From the IMG/VR virus record IMGVR_UViG_2529292726_000024, positions 1 through 10,801 of that record: a stretch of 10,801 nt of DNA, one strand, 5' to 3'. The DNA is from a virus (lineage: Duplodnaviria > Heunggongvirae > Uroviricota > Caudoviricetes). Shown here piece after piece: positions 1,706-10,801 of this stretch. The first letter of the stretch is position 1; each line of letters begins with the position of its first letter. Below the pieces are notes generated by a model that searched no databases, was not told where the DNA came from, and saw only the letters and a program-made list of their open reading frames with translations. The position numbers and the translations under genes were made by a program.

Positions 1706-1748
1706 GTGCTTTCCTTTGTTTTTTAAACAAATTGTTTTCTAGTATTAG

Positions 1749-2748: not shown

Positions 2749-2778
2749 CAGTGTTTTAGCCTCGTGGATATTGTCACC

Positions 2779-3837
2779 ATGCGCATGAATAGACTTCCAG
2801 GATATGGCCTTCCCGAACTGGCTTTTTGGCCTCAGCCTAAATATGAACGGAATAAATGGTCGATGTTCTGTCTGAAACTCCGTAATGATGGAACCCTTGC
2901 TTGGTATCGGCGATATGTTGATCGTGGTATGCCAAACCACGCTTTTGATGACGACTACGATAACTATCCTGAAGCAAGAAAAGCGGCATTAGAGCTGAAT
3001 AAAAACGTGAGCTTTGACATTGAAAAACTTCCTCTATCTATGTTTCAAAAGAAGTCATTGCGTTTGAAAGTTGACAAAGCACTCAAAGCCAAATCACGTC
3101 TCATGGATGAAGAGCATATAATGCTCAACGAAGCAATTAAGGCACACGCCAACGATCCGCGAGTGACATTAAATGAGTTAATAATTAACCCAGATTACGA
3201 AACTTTGCGTCAACCCCTTTTTGACGTGCTAAGCGAGATGCCTTACTTACATTTTGTTTTTCTTCCCAAATTCCAAGTTTCACTTCAACTCGTTGCTCCT
3301 AACACTTGGGAATGTTCATATAACAACAAAGCTAAGACAGCGAAGATCTGCTACCAAGAACGCATAGCCAGAGGTTTTGGTTTATCAGGTGCTGCACATT
3401 GGGGAAAAACAAAAGCGACTATTCGCTCAATGCTTCTGCCGCGTGCTAACCGGTTACTGCAACTCGCCAGCGTAAAAAGAATGCTGGATGAAGCTCTCAG
3501 GAATGGGCAAAAGGTACTGGTTGTTGGCAACTTTGTTTTCTGGTTTGAGGACAAAAATCAGGTAGGTTGGAGTGTTAAAGTTGCTAGCGAAAGCGAAACC
3601 ACCTCAAGAGGCAATACGCTCTGGAAAGAAGGAACTATCATTTCAAAAAATCACGGTCGAATTGTCGTGCTGCCGTATACAAAAGAAAACGGTAAACATG
3701 TAAAAGGTTATACCAAGAATGCCCCTAACGACGGCAACGCAATTCCGAGACATAAGGATGAGTATGTCGAGTTGCCCTTTGAAATTTTGGATGGTGACTT
3801 GATGTTCAGTCTGTTCGGTGAGCTTAACTACGAATAG
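2779..3837 (+). CDS. hypothetical protein (352 aa from ATG 2779; 357 aa if the GTG at 2764 is used), orphan accessory gene of unknown function
   Basis: Uninterrupted ORF on the strand opposite to both flanking modules; terminator-like hairpin downstream; AT-richer than neighbours by hand count (3001-3060 about 32% GC versus about 45% for 1381-1440 in the helicase). No Walker, HTH, TM or nuclease motif recognised. Start codon uncertain; no strong SD. Confidence 0.6.
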   Translation: MRMNRLPGYGLPELAFWPQPKYERNKWSMFCLKLRNDGTLAWYRRYVDRGMPNHAFDDDYDNYPEARKAALELNKNVSFDIEKLPLSMFQKKSLRLKVDKALKAKSRLMDEEHIMLNEAIKAHANDPRVTLNELIINPDYETLRQPLFDVLSEMPYLHFVFLPKFQVSLQLVAPNTWECSYNNKAKTAKICYQERIARGFGLSGAAHWGKTKATIRSMLLPRANRLLQLASVKRMLDEALRNGQKVLVVGNFVFWFEDKNQVGWSVKVASESETTSRGNTLWKEGTIISKNHGRIVVLPYTKENGKHVKGYTKNAPNDGNAIPRHKDEYVELPFEILDGDLMFSLFGELNYE

Positions 3838-3854
3838 CTTTCATAGAACGAAAT

Positions 3855-3892
3855 ATTTCTAAGGCTGTCCAATGCAGACCAGCCTTAGAGAT
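3855..3892. terminator. bidirectional terminator-like hairpin between convergent genes
   Basis: Stem 3855-3867 pairs with 3880-3892 (core CTAAGGCTG / CAGCCTTAG, 9 perfect bp, extendable to 13 with one wobble), 12-nt loop; T-rich flank on both strands. Lies between the stop at 3835-3837 (+) and the stop at 3900-3898 (-). Confidence 0.45.
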
Positions 3893-3897
3893 TTATA

Positions 3898-4257
3898 TCA
3901 ACCTTTCTTCATTAACTCGCGTTTAATTTCATCGGTACGCATCGTGACATCGGCAGCGGTGATCGCCTCATTCAATTTCACGATGTCCTCGATTTCCTGC
4001 GGTGACTTCTCTGCCAGATGGAAAATGGCTGCTCGAATCACGTCAGAACGAGTGAACTTCTCGAAGCGAGGGATGAACTTCATCATCTCCAGCAGTTCGA
4101 AGTATTCGTCCTCCAGTGACATTGTGCGGCTTTTAATTTTCTCTTTGCCACGAGTCGGGCGTCCCTGTGGTCTGACTGGTTGGCGCAAAGGAGTTGTGTT
4201 CTTAGCCGGTGCATCAGGCTCTTTGCGCTTTGCTAGGTCACCCATTTTCATGGACAT
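3898..4257 (-). CDS. small partition-locus partner protein (ParG/ParB-like centromere-binding protein candidate)
   Basis: 119-aa ORF whose ATG (4257-4255) overlaps the ParA stop (4259-4257) as TAATG; basic, Pro-rich N-terminal tail and short C-terminal domain, typical of small partner proteins of ParF-type ATPases. Assignment is by context, not motif. Confidence 0.5.
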   Translation of the reverse strand: MSMKMGDLAKRKEPDAPAKNTTPLRQPVRPQGRPTRGKEKIKSRTMSLEDEYFELLEMMKFIPRFEKFTRSDVIRAAIFHLAEKSPQEIEDIVKLNEAITAADVTMRTDEIKRELMKKG

Positions 4258-4925
4258 TATTCTTCTTCCTCCAGACTCAACAGATAATCTACAAATTCTT
4301 CAAACTCGGCTTCCGCCTTTTTGTCGCGCTCGCTACCGGTCATTTCAAAGATAGAACGACCAGACTCTTCCGCATCATCATAGACGTTGCGGTTATATAG
4401 ATTGACTGGCGCAGACTCGATTCCAAACGTCTCAACAATCTCTTTAGCCGCCAGAATGCGAGACACTTGTGATGGCAAAGCCGGGCACTGGTTCATGACC
4501 GCGCGGACCTTCACTTTATCGTTTACATTGCGAACATTGTCGATAATAGGATCGATGTCACGTAAAGATTTCAAATCACGACGCTTAGGACGCAGCGGGA
4601 TAATGATAACGTCAGCCATCAGCATCGCTTGTCGCTGAATTTCGGAGTCGAAGCCACCAGCATCTACCACTACAAACTCAGCTCTACCCTGAAGCGATTT
4701 TAGGTGCTTAATGATGTCATCCTGAACGTATGCAAAAGGAATCAGCTCAAGGTCTTCGTTCTGTCGACGGTCTTCACACCAGCTCGTTGTCGTGCGCTGA
4801 ATATCTATATCGGTAATATAAACCTTCTTCTTCTTTTTGACTTTCAGGCAAACGGCAATTTGCTGGGCAACGGTGGATTTGCCAGGCCCGCCCTTTGTGC
4901 CGCCAACCACAAAGATCTTGGTCAT
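4257..4925 (-). CDS. ParA/ParF-family partition ATPase (deviant Walker A)
   Basis: 222 aa; deviant Walker A GGTKGGPGKST near the N-terminus; acidic C-terminus; small size typical of type Ib ParA. Confidence 0.8.
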   Translation of the reverse strand: MTKIFVVGGTKGGPGKSTVAQQIAVCLKVKKKKKVYITDIDIQRTTTSWCEDRRQNEDLELIPFAYVQDDIIKHLKSLQGRAEFVVVDAGGFDSEIQRQAMLMADVIIIPLRPKRRDLKSLRDIDPIIDNVRNVNDKVKVRAVMNQCPALPSQVSRILAAKEIVETFGIESAPVNLYNRNVYDDAEESGRSIFEMTGSERDKKAEAEFEEFVDYLLSLEEEE

Positions 4926-4960
4926 TGGAGAGTTCCCTTTGCGTATATAATTATCGTCTG

Positions 4961-4973
4961 AAACAACTTGTTT
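4961..4973. promoter_or_regulatory. palindrome upstream of parA-like gene (candidate operator/centromere element)
   Basis: AAACAA-c-TTGTTT at 4961-4973, about 36 bp upstream of the parA ATG. Additional inverted repeat GTACGG-N7-CCGTAC at 5105-5123 in the same intergenic region. Confidence 0.25.
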
Positions 4974-5128
4974 TCTTATATGTGATATAGCCTAAATGCC
5001 TACGGCTGCGGTGTAAAGGTTAAATGGTAGGTTGTGATTAACAATTGGCAAACATAGCTTGTATTTGTCTGTTGAAAAAAGTAACAATGACCTCTATATT
5101 ACAAGTACGGTGATATGCCGTACACAAT

Positions 5129-5188
5129 TTGATAATGCACACGTAATGGGCTATAGCCTTTTAAAGTAATTTTTGAGTCGAAAACTCA
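5129..5188 (+). promoter_or_regulatory. candidate promoter and operator of the toxin-antitoxin operon
   Basis: TTGATA (5129-5134), 17-bp spacer, TATAGC (5152-5157); downstream inverted repeat TGAGT-cgaaa-ACTCA at 5174-5188, positioned like an autoregulatory operator. Confidence 0.3.
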
Positions 5189-5243
5189 GTTTGAACAGAG
5201 GAGATTGATGGCCTTCCTACATCACGGCCATCAGGAGGAATAC

Positions 5244-5513
5244 ATGTCAGCACTAAAAAAGCAGCGCATCGATTTGAGATTAACCGATGACGATAAAAGC
5301 ATCATCGAGGAAGCTGCCGCAATGTCTAACCAGAGCATTACTCAGTTTATGGTTAGCAGTGCATCTGAACGTGCCGTGAAAGTTATAGAGCAACACCGTA
5401 GACTAGTTCTGAATGAAGAATCCTGGAATCTGGTTATGGACGCTATAAGCAATCCTCCGGCACCGAACGACAAGCTGAAACGAGCTGCTGATCGTCTGAA
5501 AAGCATGGAGTAG
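5244..5513 (+). CDS. type II antitoxin, DUF1778 (RHH) family, AtaR/TacA/KacA-like
   Basis: MSALKKQRIDLRLTDDDKS... matches the conserved N-terminus of DUF1778 antitoxins as I remember them. SD AGGAGG 5 nt upstream of ATG 5244; an alternative in-frame ATG at 5208 also has an SD. Stop is 7 nt before the toxin start. Confidence 0.8.
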   Translation: MSALKKQRIDLRLTDDDKSIIEEAAAMSNQSITQFMVSSASERAVKVIEQHRRLVLNEESWNLVMDAISNPPAPNDKLKRAADRLKSME

Positions 5514-5520
5514 TTTACTC

Positions 5521-6042
5521 GTGGATAATATAAAGATAGAAATTTTCTCTGGAGAGAAAGATTATGATTTGAATGGTTTTGATTGCGGTGAAGAATCACT
5601 AAATGCCTTTTTAACCAACCACTTAAAAAGGCAGCATGAGGGAAAAATTCTTCGCGCTTATGTGCTTTGCACGAAAGAAGGCAGACCAAAAGTGTTAGGG
5701 TATTACACTTTGTCAGGTAGCTGCTTTGAAAAGGAGTCCTTACCTTCAAGAAGCCAGCAAAAGAAGGTACCTTATCGGAATGTTCCAAGTGTTACTTTGG
5801 GTAGGCTGGCTTTGGACAAGTCCCTTCAAGGTCAAGGATTTGGCTCAATGCTTGTAACACATGCAATGCGCGTTGTGTACAATGCATCTCTTGCTGTAGG
5901 CATTCATGGACTTTTCGTTGAGGCGTTAAATGACAAAGCCAAGGCGTTTTATAAAAGTTTAGACTTTATCCAGCTGGTTGGTAACAACGAGCGTTCTTTG
6001 TTCTATCCTACAAAATCTATCGAAAAATTGTTCGAAGAATAA
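5521..6042 (+). CDS. GNAT-family N-acetyltransferase toxin (AtaT/TacT/ItaT-like, aminoacyl-tRNA acetylating)
   Basis: 173 aa, GTG start; acetyl-CoA-binding motif LQGQGFGSML; conserved FDCGEE and VGIHGLFVEALN segments remembered from AtaT-family toxins; directly downstream of the DUF1778 antitoxin. Confidence 0.8.
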   Translation: MDNIKIEIFSGEKDYDLNGFDCGEESLNAFLTNHLKRQHEGKILRAYVLCTKEGRPKVLGYYTLSGSCFEKESLPSRSQQKKVPYRNVPSVTLGRLALDKSLQGQGFGSMLVTHAMRVVYNASLAVGIHGLFVEALNDKAKAFYKSLDFIQLVGNNERSLFYPTKSIEKLFEE

Positions 6043-6462: not shown

Positions 6463-7155
6463 TTAGACCATCCCTTTCTGGTGTTTTCTTCCCTGCGACC
6501 AGGCAATGAATCCTGCCACAACAATAGTGGCAATACCGAAGATGATGCGTACTGTATCCCCGCTAGAGATATGACCTTGTGCTTTATCCATAGCAGCGGA
6601 AACCTGCGGCATAACATCGGCCAGCTGCGCCAGACCAATACCTGCTGTAACAGTTGCGCCTGCGGTTTCTTTAGTTACAGGAACAGCCTTCACGGTTTTC
6701 ACCGGCTTAACAACGCCAGCTCGACGCAGACCTTCCTCAATAACTTCTACCGCATACCAGGTGTTCAGCGTTTTTAGCGGGCCTCGGCCATTCTCGTGGC
6801 GAATGATTGCCTCAACCAAAGGTCGAAGGATGTCGTAATCATGCAGATCGATGATCATGTCTGCGGTTACACCAACGGCTTTAGACACCTCATTAATGTA
6901 GGCGTCAGTATTGTTTTCATTCGGCGGTGCCCAACGTTCAATAACTTCACGAATGGTATCGATACTTGAGCCGTCTTTTGCGCGACGTTTGTCGTGGTAG
7001 GTAATTAGAGTCACCGCCAGCGCACGAATCCCCCAAACAGGGTCTTTAAACGTGCAAAAGCGCGGTTCGTCTGGATTCGCAACCAGACCTTGCCACGGTG
7101 ATCCTTTATCAAGATTACCGGGGTTATTATTACGAATGCCTCTCGGAGTCTTCAT
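6463..7155 (-). CDS. tail-anchored membrane protein (C-terminal TM); endolysin-like only by its position in the cassette, unverified
   Basis: 230 aa from ATG 7155 (SD AGGAG 7 nt upstream; the track start at 7182 is a GTG). N-terminal soluble domain with RNNNPGNL, C-terminal TM IIFGIATIVVAGFIAW. No catalytic motif of a known muralytic family recognised. Confidence 0.4.
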   Translation of the reverse strand: MKTPRGIRNNNPGNLDKGSPWQGLVANPDEPRFCTFKDPVWGIRALAVTLITYHDKRRAKDGSSIDTIREVIERWAPPNENNTDAYINEVSKAVGVTADMIIDLHDYDILRPLVEAIIRHENGRGPLKTLNTWYAVEVIEEGLRRAGVVKPVKTVKAVPVTKETAGATVTAGIGLAQLADVMPQVSAAMDKAQGHISSGDTVRIIFGIATIVVAGFIAWSQGRKHQKGMV

Positions 7156-7168
7156 CCTTGATCTCCTG

Positions 7169-7492
7169 TTATTGCAGTCCACTTTTTACGCCATACGCGG
7201 CTAACCCCAAAAGCAGTGCGGTAATAATGAACGACGTTATTTTAGAAACAATGCCGCCAAAGAACCCACTTGAGATGGAATCTAACCGGTTAAGGAGTTT
7301 GTCCAGATTGGAGTGTTGAATACTATGTTGCGCCGGGGTCATATCACCAAAGTAGGTTTTCAGCTGATCATTGACCTCCTGGCCAATTTCTTCACGTAGC
7401 TCTTTACCTAATTTGCCAACAACCTCCCGAGCAACGATCGCGGCAATACGCTCAACTTGCTCTGTTGTAACGCCCGCCATCTCGTTCGACAT
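7169..7492 (-). CDS. small tail-anchored membrane protein (holin-like by position, unverified)
   Basis: ATG at 7492 has a strong SD GGAGG 5 nt upstream (alternative ATG at 7504 lacks one). About 85-aa charged N-terminal region then a single C-terminal TM ITSFIITALLLGLAAYGV. Stop is 13 nt before the next gene. Confidence 0.4.
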   Translation of the reverse strand: MSNEMAGVTTEQVERIAAIVAREVVGKLGKELREEIGQEVNDQLKTYFGDMTPAQHSIQHSNLDKLLNRLDSISSGFFGGIVSKITSFIITALLLGLAAYGVKSGLQ

Positions 7493-7573
7493 GTTTTCCT
7501 CCATGAAAAGTCAAATCGGGATGGCGGATTTATATCACATTTCACCCTTTTGTTGTAGGTGTGTACTTACCTA

Positions 7574-7814: not shown

Positions 7815-8423
7815 TCAGTTATACAGATTTCTATTTATTACCGGTACTCTGCCATTTACGCTAAAACTATGGCCGCCATTAAGTTGGTTTACGAATATCG
7901 AGCTAACAGTATTTCCATATGCCGCATATCCATAAACCATTGTCATGGCTCCGCCCGGTACTGGAACAGCGAACACATTCGCATATGTTGGGATTATCGC
8001 TGGAGGGTAATCAAAAACATGCCCTCCAGAGCTGTTCCACTCCGTATTATTAAGAAAGGTAAATGAAAGTGGGATATTTGCCGTATTATAGATTTCCTCC
8101 CCTTGTGCATTGAAAAAACTCATGCCCCAAGTTTCTTTTTTGGCTATACCTTTCGAAAATACGTATATCGTGGCACTAGAGTCGCTACCCTGACCTCCGA
8201 AACTGTAAATCACCTGGTTGTTACGCACTATTCTGTTGGCTATTAATGAAACAGCTTTCGAATAGGCAACAAAAATAATCGGTGAACGATCTGGAGATAT
8301 TTTGGTGTTAAACTCTGTTCCGCCGGACAAAGAAACAACCTGCTTTCTCTGAAAAACGATAGGAGACAAAGAAGGAGACATCCAGACCTTCCCGTCAGAT
8401 CGATATATCTTGCTTCCGTACAT
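7815..8423 (-). CDS. hypothetical protein, 202 aa, Gly/Ser/Asn/Tyr-rich, probably beta-rich
   Basis: ATG at 8423-8421 overlaps the stop of the upstream gene as TAATG (translational coupling). No TM segment or catalytic motif seen. Confidence 0.55.
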   Translation of the reverse strand: MYGSKIYRSDGKVWMSPSLSPIVFQRKQVVSLSGGTEFNTKISPDRSPIIFVAYSKAVSLIANRIVRNNQVIYSFGGQGSDSSATIYVFSKGIAKKETWGMSFFNAQGEEIYNTANIPLSFTFLNNTEWNSSGGHVFDYPPAIIPTYANVFAVPVPGGAMTMVYGYAAYGNTVSSIFVNQLNGGHSFSVNGRVPVINRNLYN

Positions 8424-8677
8424 TATTTTTGAAAAACCAATATGTTTAAATTACCACTAGCTCCAGACCACGAAATGGTATTTCCAGAAACCGTAAGACT
8501 TGTGTACTTTCCATTGGTTACGTCCATTATGTAATAGTCGATTCCCAATCCCGCCTCAACCTCATATGTTCTACTTCCTGAACCAGAGGGAGTAAAATAA
8601 TCGAGGTAATAAACAGGGGCCAACGCATTGACCATCTCCTGTCTTGATGGCGACCAAACCTGTGCACCATAGCTCAT
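8423..8677 (-). CDS. hypothetical protein, 84 aa
   Basis: ATG at 8677 with SD AAGGA 7 nt upstream; first gene after the tail-fibre stop; coupled to the 202-aa gene. No motif recognised. Confidence 0.5.
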   Translation of the reverse strand: MSYGAQVWSPSRQEMVNALAPVYYLDYFTPSGSGSRTYEVEAGLGIDYYIMDVTNGKYTSLTVSGNTISWSGASGNLNILVFQK

Positions 8678-8702
8678 AAATATATCCTTATACTTTTAAG
8701 CA

Positions 8703-8725
8703 GGGGCTGGTTTAGCTCCAGCCCC
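8703..8725. other. GC-rich hairpin between the tail-fibre gene and the downstream cassette
   Basis: GGGGCTGG (8703-8710) pairs with CCAGCCCC (8718-8725), 7-nt loop. U-rich flank only on the plus strand, so it is not a convincing terminator for the minus-strand operon; possibly an RNA-stability or processing element. Confidence 0.3.
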
Positions 8726-8737
8726 GATTGAAGTTGT

Positions 8738-10534
8738 TTATTCTTTAGGTGAATTTAACTTCGTTTCAAGCTCCTCAACCCTTTTGGTCAATTGCTGAAT
8801 ATGATGAATGAGTGGTACAACCAAACGCTCATACATCACTCCTTCAGCGACCATACCATTTGAGGAAATACCTTCTGGAGAATCATTATTTGTTGGTTCA
8901 CGCCAATGGACATATTGCGGGGCAATCTCACCAACCTCTTCAGCAATAAGGCCGTAATACCCCCAATCCTTTCGGTCACCTCGACAAATTGAACGATACC
9001 AAACAGGTCTTAATGACAAAAGTTCATCAGCATATCGATCTTGTAATGTTTCAATATCCTTTTTATAGCGCCTTGAAGACGTTGAACGCCAAACTGTATT
9101 GATACCTGGGTTTGGATCAATGTACATATTGGCACCGCTAGTAGTTGTGCCAATATCCCATATAGCAAACCCTCCACTACCGCCTGATTTGACAACCAGT
9201 GTTTCAGCAACAATATCCAGGTTGCCACTATAGCCTGTCAGTGATGATCTGCTTGCATAGGAACTTAGAAGGTTTGCTACCTCTGTTTTCGTGTAAGCAT
9301 TAAGGTTAGCCGCAGTCAAAGTTATATCGGCAGAGCCATCAAACGCCACACCAGCAATTTTCCTTGCTGTCTGCAATTTTGTGGCGGTTGCGGCATTACC
9401 AGTAGTGTTCTGATTACCAGTGGCATTCACACCAGGAATGGAGTCCCTTGATGTATATACCTGCGCCCACGCTGACCATGCCGCAACTGTGTAATCTCTT
9501 CGGGAGCGAATGAAAACCGGCGCATGTGCACCGCTCGTACCACTCCAGCCAATAAGCAACTCGCCCTCACCAGCAGCACTCGCACCTTTCATGTGCAATA
9601 CGTTGCCATACGTGGTCGGGTAGCTATTGTTGTACACCTCATACATTTGAATGCCAGCAGTGCCTTGAGTAGAGCCGCTTAACGCCGTAACTCGGCCACG
9701 AGATACCAATGTATTAATATTGATATCGCCTGAACCATCAAACTTAACACCATTGATGTTTCTCGCTGTTTGCAACTTCGTAGCTGTTGAAGCATTACCG
9801 TTCAAACTACCATTTACGCCACCAGTCACATTTAGTCCATTACCAATTGATACAGCACCGCTGGTATTATTAATTGTAATAGGTCGCAAACCGTTCCATG
9901 AACCTAATGTGTCTCCTGATGCTGTTAGCAGGAAATATGTGTTCGCCCCATCATTACGGATAAAGAACCCAAAGTTACCGTAAGCAATGCGGAAACCATT
10001 TGCATATTTTGAAACGATCTCACCAGAAGACGTTAACCCTCCAGATAATGTGCCACCTGAAAGCGGTAATGCTCCTACATCAGAAGCTGTTGGTTTGTTT
10101 CTAGTGTTATACGCTCTGCGCCATCCAGGTGAATAACTTGAGCCATTAGACACATAGATAAACTCCGCATTAGTGAGTGCACCAGAGACATTTGTCGTAG
10201 TGGCCGTTGTTATTCGAATGGTGTAATTGTTGGTATTATTGCTGAATACTTCTATCACAGCACCCGCCAGTGGAATAATGCCACAACCAGTTTCACTGTC
10301 TGGTATGGATGCACTATTCGCATACGCCCATGCACAACGAGCGATCCATGCTTTCGTACTGAATGCCCCGTTATTTTGCAACAAAGTAACTAACTGGGCT
10401 GTCGTTATTGCCCCTCCATTACTTCCTGTAGTTAACCAACCAGTAGGAGATGCCGGGCAACCTATATTTGCTGGCGACAAGGCAATATTTGCCGAGCCGT
10501 CAAACGACACCCCATTGATAGTACGCGCAGTCTG
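8738..10534 (-). pseudogene. tail fibre protein with C-terminal S74 intramolecular-chaperone domain, 5-prime truncated by IS2 insertion
   Basis: Three copies of the tail-fibre repeat LQTAR-INGV-FDGS; C-terminal domain with SSRRYKKDI (S74 auto-cleavage consensus) and ...VPLIHHIQQLTKRVEELETKL. The reading frame runs into the IS2 left end at 10535, so the first ~45 codons of the 643-aa track ORF derive from IS2. Confidence 0.8.
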
Positions 10535-10801
10535 TAGACTGCCCCCCTGAATCTCCAGACAACCAGTATCACTTAAATAAGTGATAGTCTTAATACTAGT
10601 TTTTAGACTAGTCATTGGAGAACAGATGATTGATGTCTTAGGGCCGGAGAAACGCAGACGGCGTACCACACAGGAAAAGATCGCAATTGTTCAGCAGAGC
10701 TTTGAACCGGGGATGACGGTCTCCCTCGTTGCCCGGCAACATGGTGTAGCAGCCAGCCAGTTATTTCTCTGGCGTAAGCAATACCAGGAAGGAAGTCTTA
10801 C
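10535..10801 (+). mobile_element. IS2 (IS3 family), left end, partial (runs off window)
   Basis: Sequence from TAGACTG at 10535 through the insC start matches the IS2 left end as I remember it (near-identical, one or two mismatches in the terminal repeat). Boundary good to about 3 bp. Confidence 0.85.
10626..10801 (+). CDS. insC: IS2 transposase OrfA (InsC), N-terminal part
   Basis: [58 protein letters not shown] is the recognised InsC N-terminus; SD GGAG upstream; ORF continues beyond the window. Confidence 0.85.

What the first reader, a model, noticed from the sequence alone, without database searches (positions are those of the whole stretch)
3898..5128. Compact ParA-type partition locus with overlapping partner gene and palindromes in its upstream region
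A partition system inside an element that also encodes tail fibre and lysis-like genes argues for extrachromosomal maintenance. The partner gene is translationally coupled through a TAATG overlap. The upstream region carries AAACAA-c-TTGTTT (4961-4973) and GTACGG-N7-CCGTAC (5105-5123), which could be operator or centromere sites, though I see no obvious tandem array.
Basis: partly seen in the sequence, partly recalled or inferred. Interest (0 to 1): 0.4.

Follow-up and report, generated by a model that had tools for sequence, protein, structure and literature searches.

The report
Phage-plasmid ParA partition operon

Summary
A 222-aa ParA (4257-4925, minus strand) is followed by a 119-aa gene (3898-4257) through a TAATG overlap, and both palindromes are where stated. 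The window is 100% identical to about 112-kb E. coli plasmids of the SSU5/pSLy3 phage-plasmid group, so extrachromosomal maintenance is correct.

ParA is a small ParF-like (type Ib) ATPase, not MinD or Soj. The partner belongs to a narrow, unnamed family that always sits directly after such a ParA. It has a disordered basic N-terminal tail. Its signals for a ribbon-helix-helix core are weak and unconfirmed.

The palindromes are not par-specific:
- AAACAA-N-TTGTTT occurs 9 times exactly in the full plasmid (0.03 expected) and 16 times with at most one mismatch. It occurs 11 and 20 times in phage SSU5. The copies sit upstream of start codons, most behind a -10-like element.
- The motif persists in Yersinia pMT1, which lacks this par module.
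- GTACGG-N7-CCGTAC sits at the start of the divergent kacAT-like promoter and occurs only where that module is present.

The centromere is unidentified. The best candidate is a unique, 96-97% conserved block (about 4980-5032) that contains the par promoter. This is an ordinary system with an uncharacterised adaptor and an unreported element-wide operator.

The parts
4257..4925 (-). parA: 222-aa small Walker-type (type Ib, ParF-like) partition ATPase. The deviant Walker A motif GGTKGGPGKST starts at residue 8, and there is no N-terminal DNA-binding extension.
   Evidence: ORF. (Pfam MipZ 7e-14, AAA_31 9e-14, CbiA). (PDB best hit ParF 4dzz, E 1.2e-10, aligned over residues 9-199). (NCBIfam ParA_partition 1.9e-33, but 115.7 bits against a cut-off of 180). 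(phrog_164 'ParA-like partition protein', 4e-51).
3898..4257 (-). Partner gene, 119 aa: putative centromere-binding adaptor. Residues 1-25 are disordered and basic, with a conserved MGDLAKR motif. An invariant KSRTMS-EDE segment is followed by helices at 48-59 and 70-82 (possible ribbon-helix-helix) and two further helices.
   Evidence: No Pfam hit. phrog_5111, function unknown. Only 25 close and 18 representative relatives. Alignments. AlphaFold models. Weak RHH signals. The gene always follows a 221-229-aa ParA.
4255..4272 (-). Gene junction: TAATG stop/start overlap (4255-4259) with GGAGG (4268-4272) 10 nt upstream of the partner ATG. Co-transcription and translational coupling are inferred.
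   Evidence: sequence. (junction conserved in 8 main-clade elements; -8 to +10 nt in distant lineages).
4958..5032 (-). Conserved cis-acting block directly upstream of parA. It is 96-97% identical across 8 elements whose third codon positions are only 61-72% identical.
   Evidence: Megablast hits to SSU5 and Klebsiella phages end at about window 5032.
4989..5017 (-). Putative par promoter, read by eye: -35 TTTACA (5017-5012), 17-nt spacer, -10 TAGGCT (4994-4989).
   Evidence: Sequence. Equivalent hexamers at the same place in diverged lineages: TTGTCA-17-TAGGCT (L010), TTGACC-17-TAACAT (L011), TTTACA-17-TAGTAT (L138), TTTACA-17-TAGGCT (L136). The consensus scanner did not report it because the -10 matches only 3 of 6 positions.
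4980..5032 (-). Par-specific part of the block (ACCTACCATTTAACCTTTACACCGCAGCCGTAGGCATTTAGGCTATATC). It is the best, but unproven, candidate for the partner's operator or centromere.
   Evidence: No other copy in the window. Only scattered 12-mer matches elsewhere in the 112.8-kb plasmid. High conservation. Short internal repeats (CATTTA twice, TAGGC twice, CCTAC/GTAGG) were seen by eye only.
4961..4973 (.). Palindrome 1, AAACAA-N-TTGTTT, about +9 to +22 of the putative par promoter. It is one copy of an element-wide promoter-proximal operator-like motif.
   Evidence: 3 matches in the window against 0.22 expected. (9 exact and 16 with at most 1 mismatch in the plasmid, against 0.03 and 0.88 expected). 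(all upstream of start codons). (SSU5: 11 and 20). (pMT1: 3 and 6). (no significant RNA fold).
1725..1737 (.). Second copy of the same palindrome (AAACAATTTGTTT), 19 nt upstream of the DnaB-like helicase start codon at 1705.
   Evidence: A copy upstream of the helicase gene, exact or with one mismatch, is also present in L001, L003, L010, L011 and L138.
5105..5123 (+). Palindrome 2, GTACGG-N7-CCGTAC: probable operator of the divergent kacAT/tacAT-like toxin-antitoxin operon, not part of par.
   Evidence: It lies just after the -10 of a + strand promoter-like site, TTGAAA-17-TATATT at 5072-5100. The arms are invariant and the spacer varies in the TA-bearing relatives L005 and L006; phage Cyrano is identical to the window across this stretch. 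It is absent from SSU5 and pJN2-26, which lack the TA genes. The antitoxin matches KacA with E 6.6e-42 and keeps R8, D10 and R12. KacAT binds a palindrome spanning its transcription start (PMC6698736).
5244..6042 (+). Neighbouring addiction module: KacA/TacA-type RHH antitoxin (5244-5513) and GNAT toxin (5521-6042).
   Evidence: TacA1 8.6e-26; GNAT families. (KacA 5zgn). (PGAP annotation).
3855..3892 (.). Inverted repeat (13-nt arms, 92% complementary, 12-nt loop) between the convergent partner gene and ORF 2764-3837. It marks the 3' edge of the par module and may be a terminator.
   Evidence: inverted repeat I3. Homology to many relatives begins at window 3895-3900. The terminator scan did not call it.

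Best explanation
Window 3898-5032 (minus strand) is the partition operon of an SSU5/pSLy3-type E. coli phage-plasmid.

Shown:
- A ParF-like small Walker ATPase gene is tightly coupled to a 119-aa gene.
- The 119-aa gene belongs to a narrow family that always follows such a ParA in this phage lineage.
- The unit, together with about 107 bp of upstream DNA, behaves as one conserved mosaic module.

Inferred from established type Ib systems (ParF-ParG of TP228, delta-omega of pSM19035):
- ATP-bound ParA dimers coat the nucleoid.
- Dimers of the partner bind plasmid DNA through a probable ribbon-helix-helix core.
- The partner's disordered lysine/arginine-rich N-terminal tail stimulates ParA ATPase.
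- The plasmid prophage copies are thereby moved apart before division.

Transcription most likely starts at TTTACA-N17-TAGGCT inside the conserved block.

The palindrome AAACAA-N-TTGTTT, just downstream of that start, is not a par centromere. It is one of 16-20 copies of an element-wide operator placed after -10-like boxes of many genes, including the helicase, nrdB, cobT-like and small-terminase-like genes. Some dimeric DNA-binding protein of the element therefore co-regulates par with those genes. A regulator other than the partner is the likelier binder.

The second palindrome is the operator of the adjacent KacA/GNAT toxin-antitoxin pair.

The true centromere is not identified. The unique conserved 50-bp stretch around the promoter is the leading candidate.
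For: Identity of the element. There are 774 plasmid records, 740 of them non-mobilizable, and phage SSU5 matches at 87%.

ParA class.

Partner always adjacent to ParA, down to 26-40% identity.

Junction conservation.

Disordered tail and helical core.

Weak RHH signals in one register:
- Pfam RHH_1 in 2 of 13 members, best E 0.005, aligning residues 49-85 of P0027 to profile positions 3-36.
- NCBIfam aCcr1, E 2e-4.
- CopG aligned in the helix1-turn-helix2 register, P 0.019.

Upstream block under selection: 96-97% identical against 61-72% at third codon positions.

Promoter hexamers recur at the same place in five diverged lineages.

Palindrome 1 is element-wide and promoter-proximal.

Palindrome 1 persists without the par genes. 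pMT1 has no partner or small ParA (tblastn E > 0.7) yet keeps 3 exact and 6 near-exact copies in strongly diverged flanks.

Three distant partner-bearing lineages lack palindrome 1 at their par promoter.

Palindrome 2 belongs to kacAT.
Against: - No function was tested.
- No repeat array of the kind every characterised RHH centromere has was found.
- ParA scores below NCBIfam's trusted cut-off for the ParA_partition equivalog.
- The promoter was read by eye and not called by the scanner.
- The only motif shared by the par upstream regions of the window clade, L010, L011 and L138 is palindrome 1 itself. AAACAA-like half-sites occur in all seven lineages (9-mers in 6 of 7, against a maximum of 5 in 30 shuffles). 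This keeps open that the partner is its binder.
- The time at which pMT1 lost the module is unknown.
Confidence: 0.68

Rival explanations
1. The partner itself binds AAACAA-N-TTGTTT. The 16-20 dispersed palindromes would then be both operators and centromere sites. The partition adaptor would double as a global repressor of replication and packaging genes, working like KorB-IncC of RK2, omega-delta of pSM19035, or the dispersed SopB sites of phage-plasmid N15.
For: - The palindrome sits at the par promoter, where a type Ib adaptor normally autoregulates.
- It is the only upstream element shared by the window clade, L010, L011 and L138, while the partner's putative DNA-reading segment KSRTMS is invariant.
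- AAACAA-like half-sites are found upstream of parA in all seven lineages.
- No other candidate array exists.
- Dispersed centromeres have a precedent in N15. This rests on my own knowledge, and on Ravin et al. 2008 as cited in PMC11652158.
Against: - pMT1 keeps the palindromes in diverged flanks without any partner homologue.
- L136, L137 and L142 have partners with the same or similar segment but no such palindrome next to the par promoter.
- The fixed position after a -10 box and the directional NAGA flank (24 of 36 sites, against 4 of 36 on the other side) point to promoter architecture rather than centromere function.
- Known RHH centromeres are clustered arrays, not single dyads.
Confidence: 0.2
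2. ParA works with the ParB/Srx-domain proteins encoded elsewhere on the element (annotated 'ParB-like partition protein' in SSU5), and the 119-aa gene is an unrelated small protein.
For: SSU5_125 and SSU5_126, and the plasmid genes RS00545 and RS00550, carry ParB N-terminal domains.
Against: - They lie about 80 kb from parA in the plasmid record, next to a DEAD-box helicase and the terminase genes.
- They are retained in pMT1, which has its own P1-type ParA/ParB and no small ParA.
- The 119-aa gene is coupled to parA in every lineage examined.
- Small type Ib ParAs are not known to pair with ParB-fold proteins (my own knowledge).
Confidence: 0.04
3. The pair is not a plasmid partition system. 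It would be a ParA/MipZ-like positioning or host-division-interfering module used in the lytic cycle, for example to place replicating phage DNA or to block host division.
For: - The top Pfam hit is MipZ, and PGAP names some copies 'division plane positioning ATPase MipZ'.
- The promoter carries the same operator as helicase, nrdB and terminase-side genes, which suggests co-regulation with lytic functions.
Against: - The MipZ match covers only residues 4-132, whereas ParF aligns over residues 9-199.
- The module is present in essentially all enterobacterial SSU5-type plasmids: 774 records carry par, against about 750 enterobacterial records that carry the helicase.
- pMT1, which lacks the module, carries a replacement P1-type par system. 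That is what one expects if the function is plasmid partition.
Confidence: 0.06
4. The 119-aa gene is a RelE/ParE-type toxin, as annotated in phage Cyrano, which would make parA-plus-partner part of an addiction system.
For: Only the depositor's product name for CYRAN_29.
Against: - No Pfam, NCBIfam or PADLOC toxin family matches.
- There is no PDB sequence match.
- The predicted structure is a disordered tail plus four helices, unlike the RelE/ParE fold.
- The true toxin-antitoxin pair lies next door.
Confidence: 0.01

Closest known systems
ParF-ParG of Salmonella plasmid TP228 (type Ib partition)
   Same: - A small ParA of about 205-220 aa without an N-terminal domain; ParF is the best solved relative.
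- A small downstream partner with a flexible basic N-terminal tail and a probable RHH core.
- Regulatory DNA lies upstream of the ATPase gene.
   Different: - Only about 25-30% identity to ParF.
- The partner has no detectable sequence similarity to ParG (no Pfam ParG hit) and carries two extra C-terminal helices.
- No array of ACTC-type tetramer boxes or any other iterated repeat was found upstream.
delta-omega of pSM19035 and KorB-IncC of RK2 (partition adaptor doubling as global regulator)
   Same: If rival 1 is true, one small DNA-binding adaptor would control many promoters and supply the centromeres. The 13-bp dyad dispersed at 16-20 sites resembles KorB's twelve 13-bp OB sites (my own knowledge).
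   Different: - No evidence links the partner to the palindrome.
- The sites persist in pMT1 without the partner.
- The sites lie downstream of the -10 box, not at KorB-like or omega-like positions.
- KorB is a ParB-fold protein, and omega binds heptad arrays.
Dispersed repressor operators of phage-plasmid P1 (C1) and dispersed sopC-like centromeres of N15
   Same: A short site is scattered over a plasmid prophage in front of many operons, including the replicative helicase gene. P1 ban is C1-controlled (my own knowledge).
   Different: - The sequence here is a symmetric 6-N-6 dyad, unlike the asymmetric 17-bp C1 site.
- The binder is unknown.
- Unlike in P1, the par promoter itself carries the site.
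KacAT / AtaRT / TacAT operator (GNAT toxin with RHH antitoxin)
   Same: Palindrome 2 has two 6-bp arms around an AT-rich centre at the transcription start of a kacA homologue whose DNA-contact residues R8, D10 and R12 are identical.
   Different: The operator sequence of the published complex was not compared base by base. Binding was not tested here.
SSU5_033 / SSU5_034 of Salmonella phage SSU5 and homologues in pHCM2- and pSLy3-type phage-plasmids
   Same: Direct orthologues: 87% DNA identity and the same synteny of tail fibre, lysis genes, parA, partner and helicase.
   Different: - Here a kacAT module and a 357-aa ORF flank the module.
- In SSU5 the partner is annotated with a shorter ORF and as hypothetical.

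Membership tests
Type Ib (ParF-like) plasmid partition ATPase | Deviant Walker A motif KGGxxK[ST] with the signature lysine, near the N terminus | tested here: met
   GGTKGGPGKST at residues 8-18 of the translation. It aligns to ParF KGGSGKTT.
Type Ib (ParF-like) plasmid partition ATPase | Small size (about 190-230 aa) with no N-terminal helix-turn-helix extension | tested here: met
   The protein is 222 aa. The Walker A motif starts at residue 8. Pfam domains cover the protein from residue 2.
Type Ib (ParF-like) plasmid partition ATPase | Closer to plasmid ParF/ParA than to MinD or chromosomal Soj | tested here: met
   PDB: ParF 1.2e-10 over residues 9-199; Soj 1e-4 over the N terminus only; no MinD match. 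NCBIfam: ParA_partition 1.9e-33 against MinD 1.3e-6.
Type Ib (ParF-like) plasmid partition ATPase | Reaches the curated score of NCBIfam NF041546 (ParA_partition equivalog) | tested here: not met
   115.7 bits against a cut-off of 180. It is a relative of, not a member of, that equivalog.
Type Ib (ParF-like) plasmid partition ATPase | Co-transcribed small centromere-binding partner immediately downstream | tested here: met
   TAATG overlap. Adjacency holds in all lineages down to 26% partner identity. DNA binding by the partner was not tested.
Type Ib (ParF-like) plasmid partition ATPase | Adjacent centromere made of iterated short repeats | tested here: not met
   No array in 3800-5260 or anywhere in the window. 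There is only a unique conserved block.
Type Ib (ParF-like) plasmid partition ATPase | Stabilises a low-copy replicon; ATPase stimulated by partner and DNA | not testable with these tools
   Needs plasmid-loss assays and biochemistry.
Ribbon-helix-helix centromere-binding proteins (ParG / omega type) | Beta-strand, helix, helix core that dimerises | tested here: inconclusive
   Weak signals in a consistent register: RHH_1 E 0.005 and 0.11 in 2 of 13 members; aCcr1 2e-4, below its cut-off; CopG P 0.019. Helices at 48-59 and 70-82 appear in the models. There was no fold match and no dimer model was possible.
Ribbon-helix-helix centromere-binding proteins (ParG / omega type) | Flexible basic N-terminal tail that contacts ParA | tested here: inconclusive
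   Residues 1-5 and 7-23 have pLDDT below 50. The tail is rich in K, R and P and has a conserved MGDLAKR motif. Interaction with ParA was not tested.
Ribbon-helix-helix centromere-binding proteins (ParG / omega type) | Sequence membership in Pfam ParG or a related named family | tested here: not met
   No Pfam family reaches its cut-off in any of 13 members.
KacAT/TacAT-type operator (for palindrome 2) | Palindrome at the transcription start of a GNAT-toxin/RHH-antitoxin operon, co-occurring with it | tested here: met
   Position relative to TTGAAA-17-TATATT. Present only with the TA genes, with conserved arms and a variable spacer. The antitoxin is a KacA homologue, E 6.6e-42. Published mode of binding: PMC6698736.
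RelE/ParE toxin (name given to the partner in phage Cyrano) | Match to a RelE/ParE family profile or fold | tested here: not met
   No such hit in Pfam, NCBIfam, PADLOC or PDB.
SSU5-supergroup phage-plasmid (pSLy3/SSU5 type) | About 100-115 kb non-integrating siphophage genome with IncFIB repA, phage structural and lysis genes, found as a plasmid | tested here: met
   100% match to circular E. coli plasmids of 112 kb typed IncFIB and non-mobilizable. The gene content includes terminase, portal, capsid, tape measure, repA, dnaE and nrdAB. Group names come from PMC11652158.

The most novel reading that the evidence does not exclude
The 119-aa partner would be a new family of partition adaptor that binds the dispersed AAACAA-N-TTGTTT dyads. 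One small protein would then serve three roles:
- centromere-binding protein;
- autoregulator of par;
- global repressor sitting just downstream of the start of 16-20 promoters for replication, nucleotide-metabolism and packaging genes.

This would couple plasmid-state maintenance to silencing of the lytic programme in SSU5-type phage-plasmids. It would be a KorB/omega-like logic built on a different fold and site geometry.
Probability: 0.2. Interest if true: 0.65.

Novelty: new member of a known kind. Interest (0 to 1): 0.35.

Why it matters
SSU5/pHCM2/pSLy3-type phage-plasmids are common in clinical E. coli, Salmonella, Klebsiella and Enterobacter. More than 770 plasmid records carry this module. 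Some of these elements carry resistance genes (PMC9600943, listed).

Their stable inheritance depends on a par system of which only the ATPase has a name. The adaptor is unannotated or mis-annotated, and no centromere is known.

Two points are practically useful for annotation:
- The conspicuous palindromes near parA belong to other circuits, an element-wide operator and the kacAT operator.
- The unique conserved block around the par promoter is the place to look for the centromere.

The element-wide dyad also gives a direct handle on how these elements regulate their lytic genes. No paper in the held library describes it.

Tried and rejected
- **Profile comparisons.** Only CopG aligned in the expected register, and weakly.
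- **PDB sequence searches of the partner.** Nothing was found.
- **Repeat searches for a centromere array.** Both were negative.
- **RNA explanations for palindrome 1.** There was no Rfam family in the window, and the leader folds no better than shuffles (z 0.14).
- **Scan of viral contigs for AAGAAAACAANTTGTTT**. It returned SSU5-size contigs with several copies plus many single, probably chance, matches. It did not discriminate who binds the motif.
- **Shared-motif search in par upstream regions of seven lineages** (the first attempt timed out). Only AAACAA-like words emerged, at modest significance.
- **Literature.** No paper in the held library describes the SSU5-type centromere, partner or operator. 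Gilcrease & Casjens 2018 is not held.
- **Defence-system reading.** PADLOC gave nothing meaningful.
- **Rejected after testing.** The Cyrano label 'RelE/ParE toxin' for the partner was rejected. So was the idea that the GTACGG palindrome belongs to par.
Full report
**Observation.**
- A 222-aa ORF lies on the minus strand at 4257-4925.
- A 119-aa ORF at 3898-4257 has an ATG that shares one base with the upstream TAA. The + strand CATTA at 4255-4259 reads TAATG on the coding strand.
- A GGAGG lies 10 nt upstream of that ATG.
- AAACAA-c-TTGTTT is at 4961-4973 and GTACGG-N7-CCGTAC is at 5105-5123.
- No tandem or iterated repeat exists in the region.

Taken alone, the two palindromes are not above chance. 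In 1000 Markov simulations of the 279-nt spacer, 22% contained two or more perfect dyads with 6-bp arms.

**What the element is.**
The 1.6-kb region is 100% identical to circular, non-mobilizable IncFIB E. coli plasmids of about 112 kb. It is 98-99.6% identical to the E. coli phages CMS-2020a, Cyrano and PhiR41_1, 87% to Salmonella phage SSU5, and about 80% to Klebsiella phage-plasmids.

The full plasmid NZ_MG904996.1 carries:
- terminase, portal, capsid, tape-measure and tail-fibre genes;
- holin, endolysin and spanin genes;
- repA, dnaE, nrdAB, thyA and a DnaB-like helicase.

It is therefore an SSU5-supergroup phage-plasmid. Reviews place the Escherichia members in the pSLy3 group (PMC11652158).

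**The ATPase.**
- Pfam matches are MipZ, AAA_31 and CbiA.
- The best solved relative is ParF of TP228 (E 1.2e-10, aligned over residues 9-199). It ranks ahead of MipZ (N-terminal 130 residues only) and Soj (1e-4). No MinD chain matched.
- NCBIfam's ParA_partition model gives 1.9e-33, but at 115.7 bits it is below the 180-bit equivalog cut-off.
- PHROGs places it in 'ParA-like partition protein'.
- The deviant Walker A motif GGTKGGPGKST begins at residue 8, and there is no N-terminal domain.

It is thus a small type Ib ParA related to ParF, but not a member of the curated equivalog.

**The partner.**
It has no Pfam family, and PHROGs lists it as of unknown function.

The family is narrow. There are 25 close clusters among 5.8 billion proteins. 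A profile search of 1.84 billion representatives found only 18.

Four distant members (26-40% identity) were traced to their contigs. Each sits directly after a 221-229-aa ParA, in the same synteny of tail fibre, lysis genes, parA, partner and helicase. The GAATAATGTCCATG junction is conserved in eight main-clade elements, and the gap ranges from -8 to +10 nt elsewhere. The pairing is therefore an evolutionarily stable operon.

Alignments show three conserved features:
- an N-terminal MGDLAKR motif;
- a K/R/P-rich stretch;
- an invariant I-K-S-R-T-M-S-x-E-D-E segment followed by F-T-R-S-D-V-I-R-A-A-I.

AlphaFold models give a disordered residue 1-25 region and helices at 48-59, 70-82, 86-97 and 101-118.

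A ribbon-helix-helix core (strand about 43-48, helix 1, helix 2) is suggested by several weak signals:
- Pfam RHH_1 hits in two members, in exactly that register (E 0.005);
- a sub-threshold hit to the RHH family aCcr1;
- an in-register alignment to CopG.

I treat RHH as likely but unproven. The Cyrano annotation 'RelE/ParE toxin' has no support.

**The upstream DNA.**
I aligned ten relatives. A block directly upstream of parA (window about 4958-5032) is 96-97% identical in eight elements. In the same elements parA and partner third codon positions are only 61% and 72% identical. The best 40-nt windows of the whole module lie in this block. Homology to SSU5 and the Klebsiella phages stops at about 5032.

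Inside the block I read a promoter, TTTACA (5017-5012)-N17-TAGGCT (4994-4989). Matching hexamers at the same position occur in diverged lineages:
- TTGTCA-17-TAGGCT in L010;
- TTGACC-17-TAACAT in L011;
- TTTACA-17-TAGTAT in L138;
- TTTACA-17-TAGGCT in L136.

The consensus scanner did not call it, because the -10 matches only three of six positions. This places palindrome 1 at about +9 to +22.

**Palindrome 1 is element-wide.**
A search of the window found a second copy (AAACAATTTGTTT, 1725-1737) 19 nt before the helicase start codon. There were three matches in all against 0.22 expected.

| Element | Exact copies | Copies with at most 1 mismatch | Expected (exact / at most 1 mismatch) |
|---|---|---|---|
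| E. coli plasmid NZ_MG904996.1 (112.8 kb) | 9 | 16 | 0.03 / 0.88 |
| Phage SSU5 | 11 | 20 | not computed |
| Y. pestis pMT1 | 3 | 6 | 0 / 0.37 |

In the E. coli plasmid, 15 of the 16 sites lie 11-66 nt upstream of the start codon of a same-strand gene. The sixteenth (88983) is in an unannotated stretch. The genes include parA, helicase, a cobT-like gene, nrdB, terB, a small-terminase-side gene and several small ORFs.

The pooled sites give a directional extended consensus: a -10-like (G)ATAAT or TAATTA element, about 12-14 nt, then cAAGA and the dyad. NAGA is on the 5' flank in 24 of 36 sites, against TCTN on the 3' flank in 4 of 36.

The parA leader has no significant RNA fold and there is no Rfam match. 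A double-stranded DNA site for a dimeric protein at the start of transcription is the simplest reading.

**Who binds palindrome 1?**
Yersinia pestis pMT1 is a relative that uses a P1-type ParA/ParB. It has no homologue of the small ParA or the partner (tblastn E > 0.7). It still keeps the palindrome in front of homologous genes whose flanks are strongly diverged.

Three distant partner-bearing lineages (L136, L137, L142) lack the dyad at the par promoter.

Both facts argue that another regulator is the binder. Candidates present in both the E. coli plasmid and pMT1 are a FljA-like protein (Pfam Flag1_repress, 9e-81) and a weak-HTH protein next to the integrase.

Against this:
- The dyad is the only upstream element shared by four clades whose partners keep the same putative DNA-reading segment.
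- AAACAA-like half-sites occur upstream of parA in all seven lineages.
- The date of par loss in pMT1 is unknown.

I therefore keep 'partner = global regulator with dispersed centromeres' as a live rival, at about 0.2.

**Palindrome 2.**
- It lies outside the conserved par block.
- It sits immediately after the -10 of a + strand promoter-like site, TTGAAA-17-TATATT at 5072-5100.
- It is found only in elements that carry the adjacent DUF1778/GNAT pair. Its arms are invariant and its spacer varies (GTACGG-CAATTTA-CCGTAC in L005, GTACGG-CGTCTTT-CCGTAC in L006). It is absent from SSU5 and pJN2-26.
- The antitoxin is a close homologue of KacA (5zgn, E 6.6e-42) with the DNA-contact residues R8, D10 and R12 unchanged.
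- KacA4KacT2 binds a pseudo-palindrome with an AT-rich centre spanning the kacAT transcription start (PMC6698736).

Palindrome 2 is therefore the toxin-antitoxin operator.

**The centromere.**
None was identified. No array exists in or next to the module, and homology ends at the partner's stop codon. The 4980-5032 part of the block has no second copy in the window or elsewhere in the plasmid and is too conserved to be explained by two promoter hexamers. It contains short repeats seen by eye (CATTTA twice, TAGGC twice, CCTAC/GTAGG). It is my best candidate for the partner's operator or centromere, but this is inference only.

**Mechanism and verdict.**
Shown:
- a ParF-like ATPase gene coupled to a conserved adaptor gene;
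- a strongly constrained upstream block;
- an element-wide operator in its leader;
- a neighbouring TA operator.

Inferred from type Ib systems:
- nucleoid-bound ParA-ATP;
- adaptor dimers on plasmid DNA;
- tail-stimulated ATP hydrolysis;
- ratchet-like separation of prophage-plasmid copies.

The parA gene is already annotated in SSU5 and its relatives. The adaptor family, the missing centromere and the dispersed dyad are undescribed in the literature I could search.

I rate the finding as a new member of a known kind, with interest 0.35. The side observation (the element-wide operator and the open question of its binder) is more interesting than the locus itself.

Noticed in passing
window 1725-1737 and 4961-4973; whole plasmid NZ_MG904996.1 (L012-L014); SSU5 (L143-L145); pMT1 (L015-L016): An element-wide promoter-proximal dyad AAACAA-N-TTGTTT. 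It has a directional extended consensus: a -10-like GATAAT/TAATTA, about 12-14 nt, then cAAGA and the dyad. Counts are 9 exact and 16 near-exact copies in the E. coli plasmid (0.03 and 0.88 expected), 11 and 20 in SSU5, and 3 and 6 in pMT1. It precedes parA, helicase, cobT-like, nrdB and terminase-side genes and many small ORFs. The binder is unknown, and the motif is not described in the papers searched.
   Followed up: partly
L014:14686-15210 (plasmid RS00515; SSU5_121; pMT1 YPO_RS00680): A 174-aa protein of the FljA family (Pfam Flag1_repress, E 9e-81, with a weak Hfq-like hit) is conserved in the E. coli plasmid, SSU5 and pMT1. It is a candidate binder of the dyad or of the corresponding 5' leaders.
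   Followed up: no
L014:19011-20359 (RS00545/RS00550); SSU5_125/126: Two ParB/Srx N-terminal-domain proteins lie next to a DEAD-box helicase, upstream of the terminase genes. SSU5 calls them 'ParB-like partition protein'. They are retained in pMT1, which has its own ParAB, so they are probably not the partners of the small ParA.
   Followed up: partly
window 2764-3837 (+): A 357-aa ORF of unknown function (phrog_22329; no Pfam or PADLOC hit) is convergent with the partner gene. It is present only in the subset of E. coli plasmids that match the query end to end. Most relatives diverge exactly at the partner's stop codon (about 3896-3900), so this is a mosaic cargo slot.
   Followed up: partly
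L002:3003-3362 (phage Cyrano CYRAN_29): The partner orthologue is annotated 'RelE/ParE putative toxin'. No profile or structural evidence supports this, so it is probably a mis-annotation.
   Followed up: yes
window 5205-6042 (+): A KacA/GNAT (kacAT/tacAT-type) toxin-antitoxin module lies divergent from parA. It is present in only some relatives: window, Cyrano, L005 and L006. SSU5, pJN2-26 and L007-L011 carry other genes there.
   Followed up: partly
plasmid NZ_MG904996.1 82205-82218 (inside the type I R-M hsdM gene): A 14-nt exact reverse-complement match to CTTTACACCGCAGC, which spans the -35 of the par promoter. It is probably chance (roughly 0.1 expected) and lies in cargo DNA.
   Followed up: no
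window 3855-3892: An inverted repeat with 13-nt arms (92% complementary, 12-nt loop) lies between the convergent genes at the edge of the par module. It is a possible bidirectional terminator, though the T-run scan did not call it.
   Followed up: no
window 6463-7504 (-), 7815-10669 (-): By synteny with SSU5_026-030, these are the holin, endolysin and spanin genes. A Peptidase_S74-type tail-fibre gene lies upstream in related contigs.
   Followed up: partly
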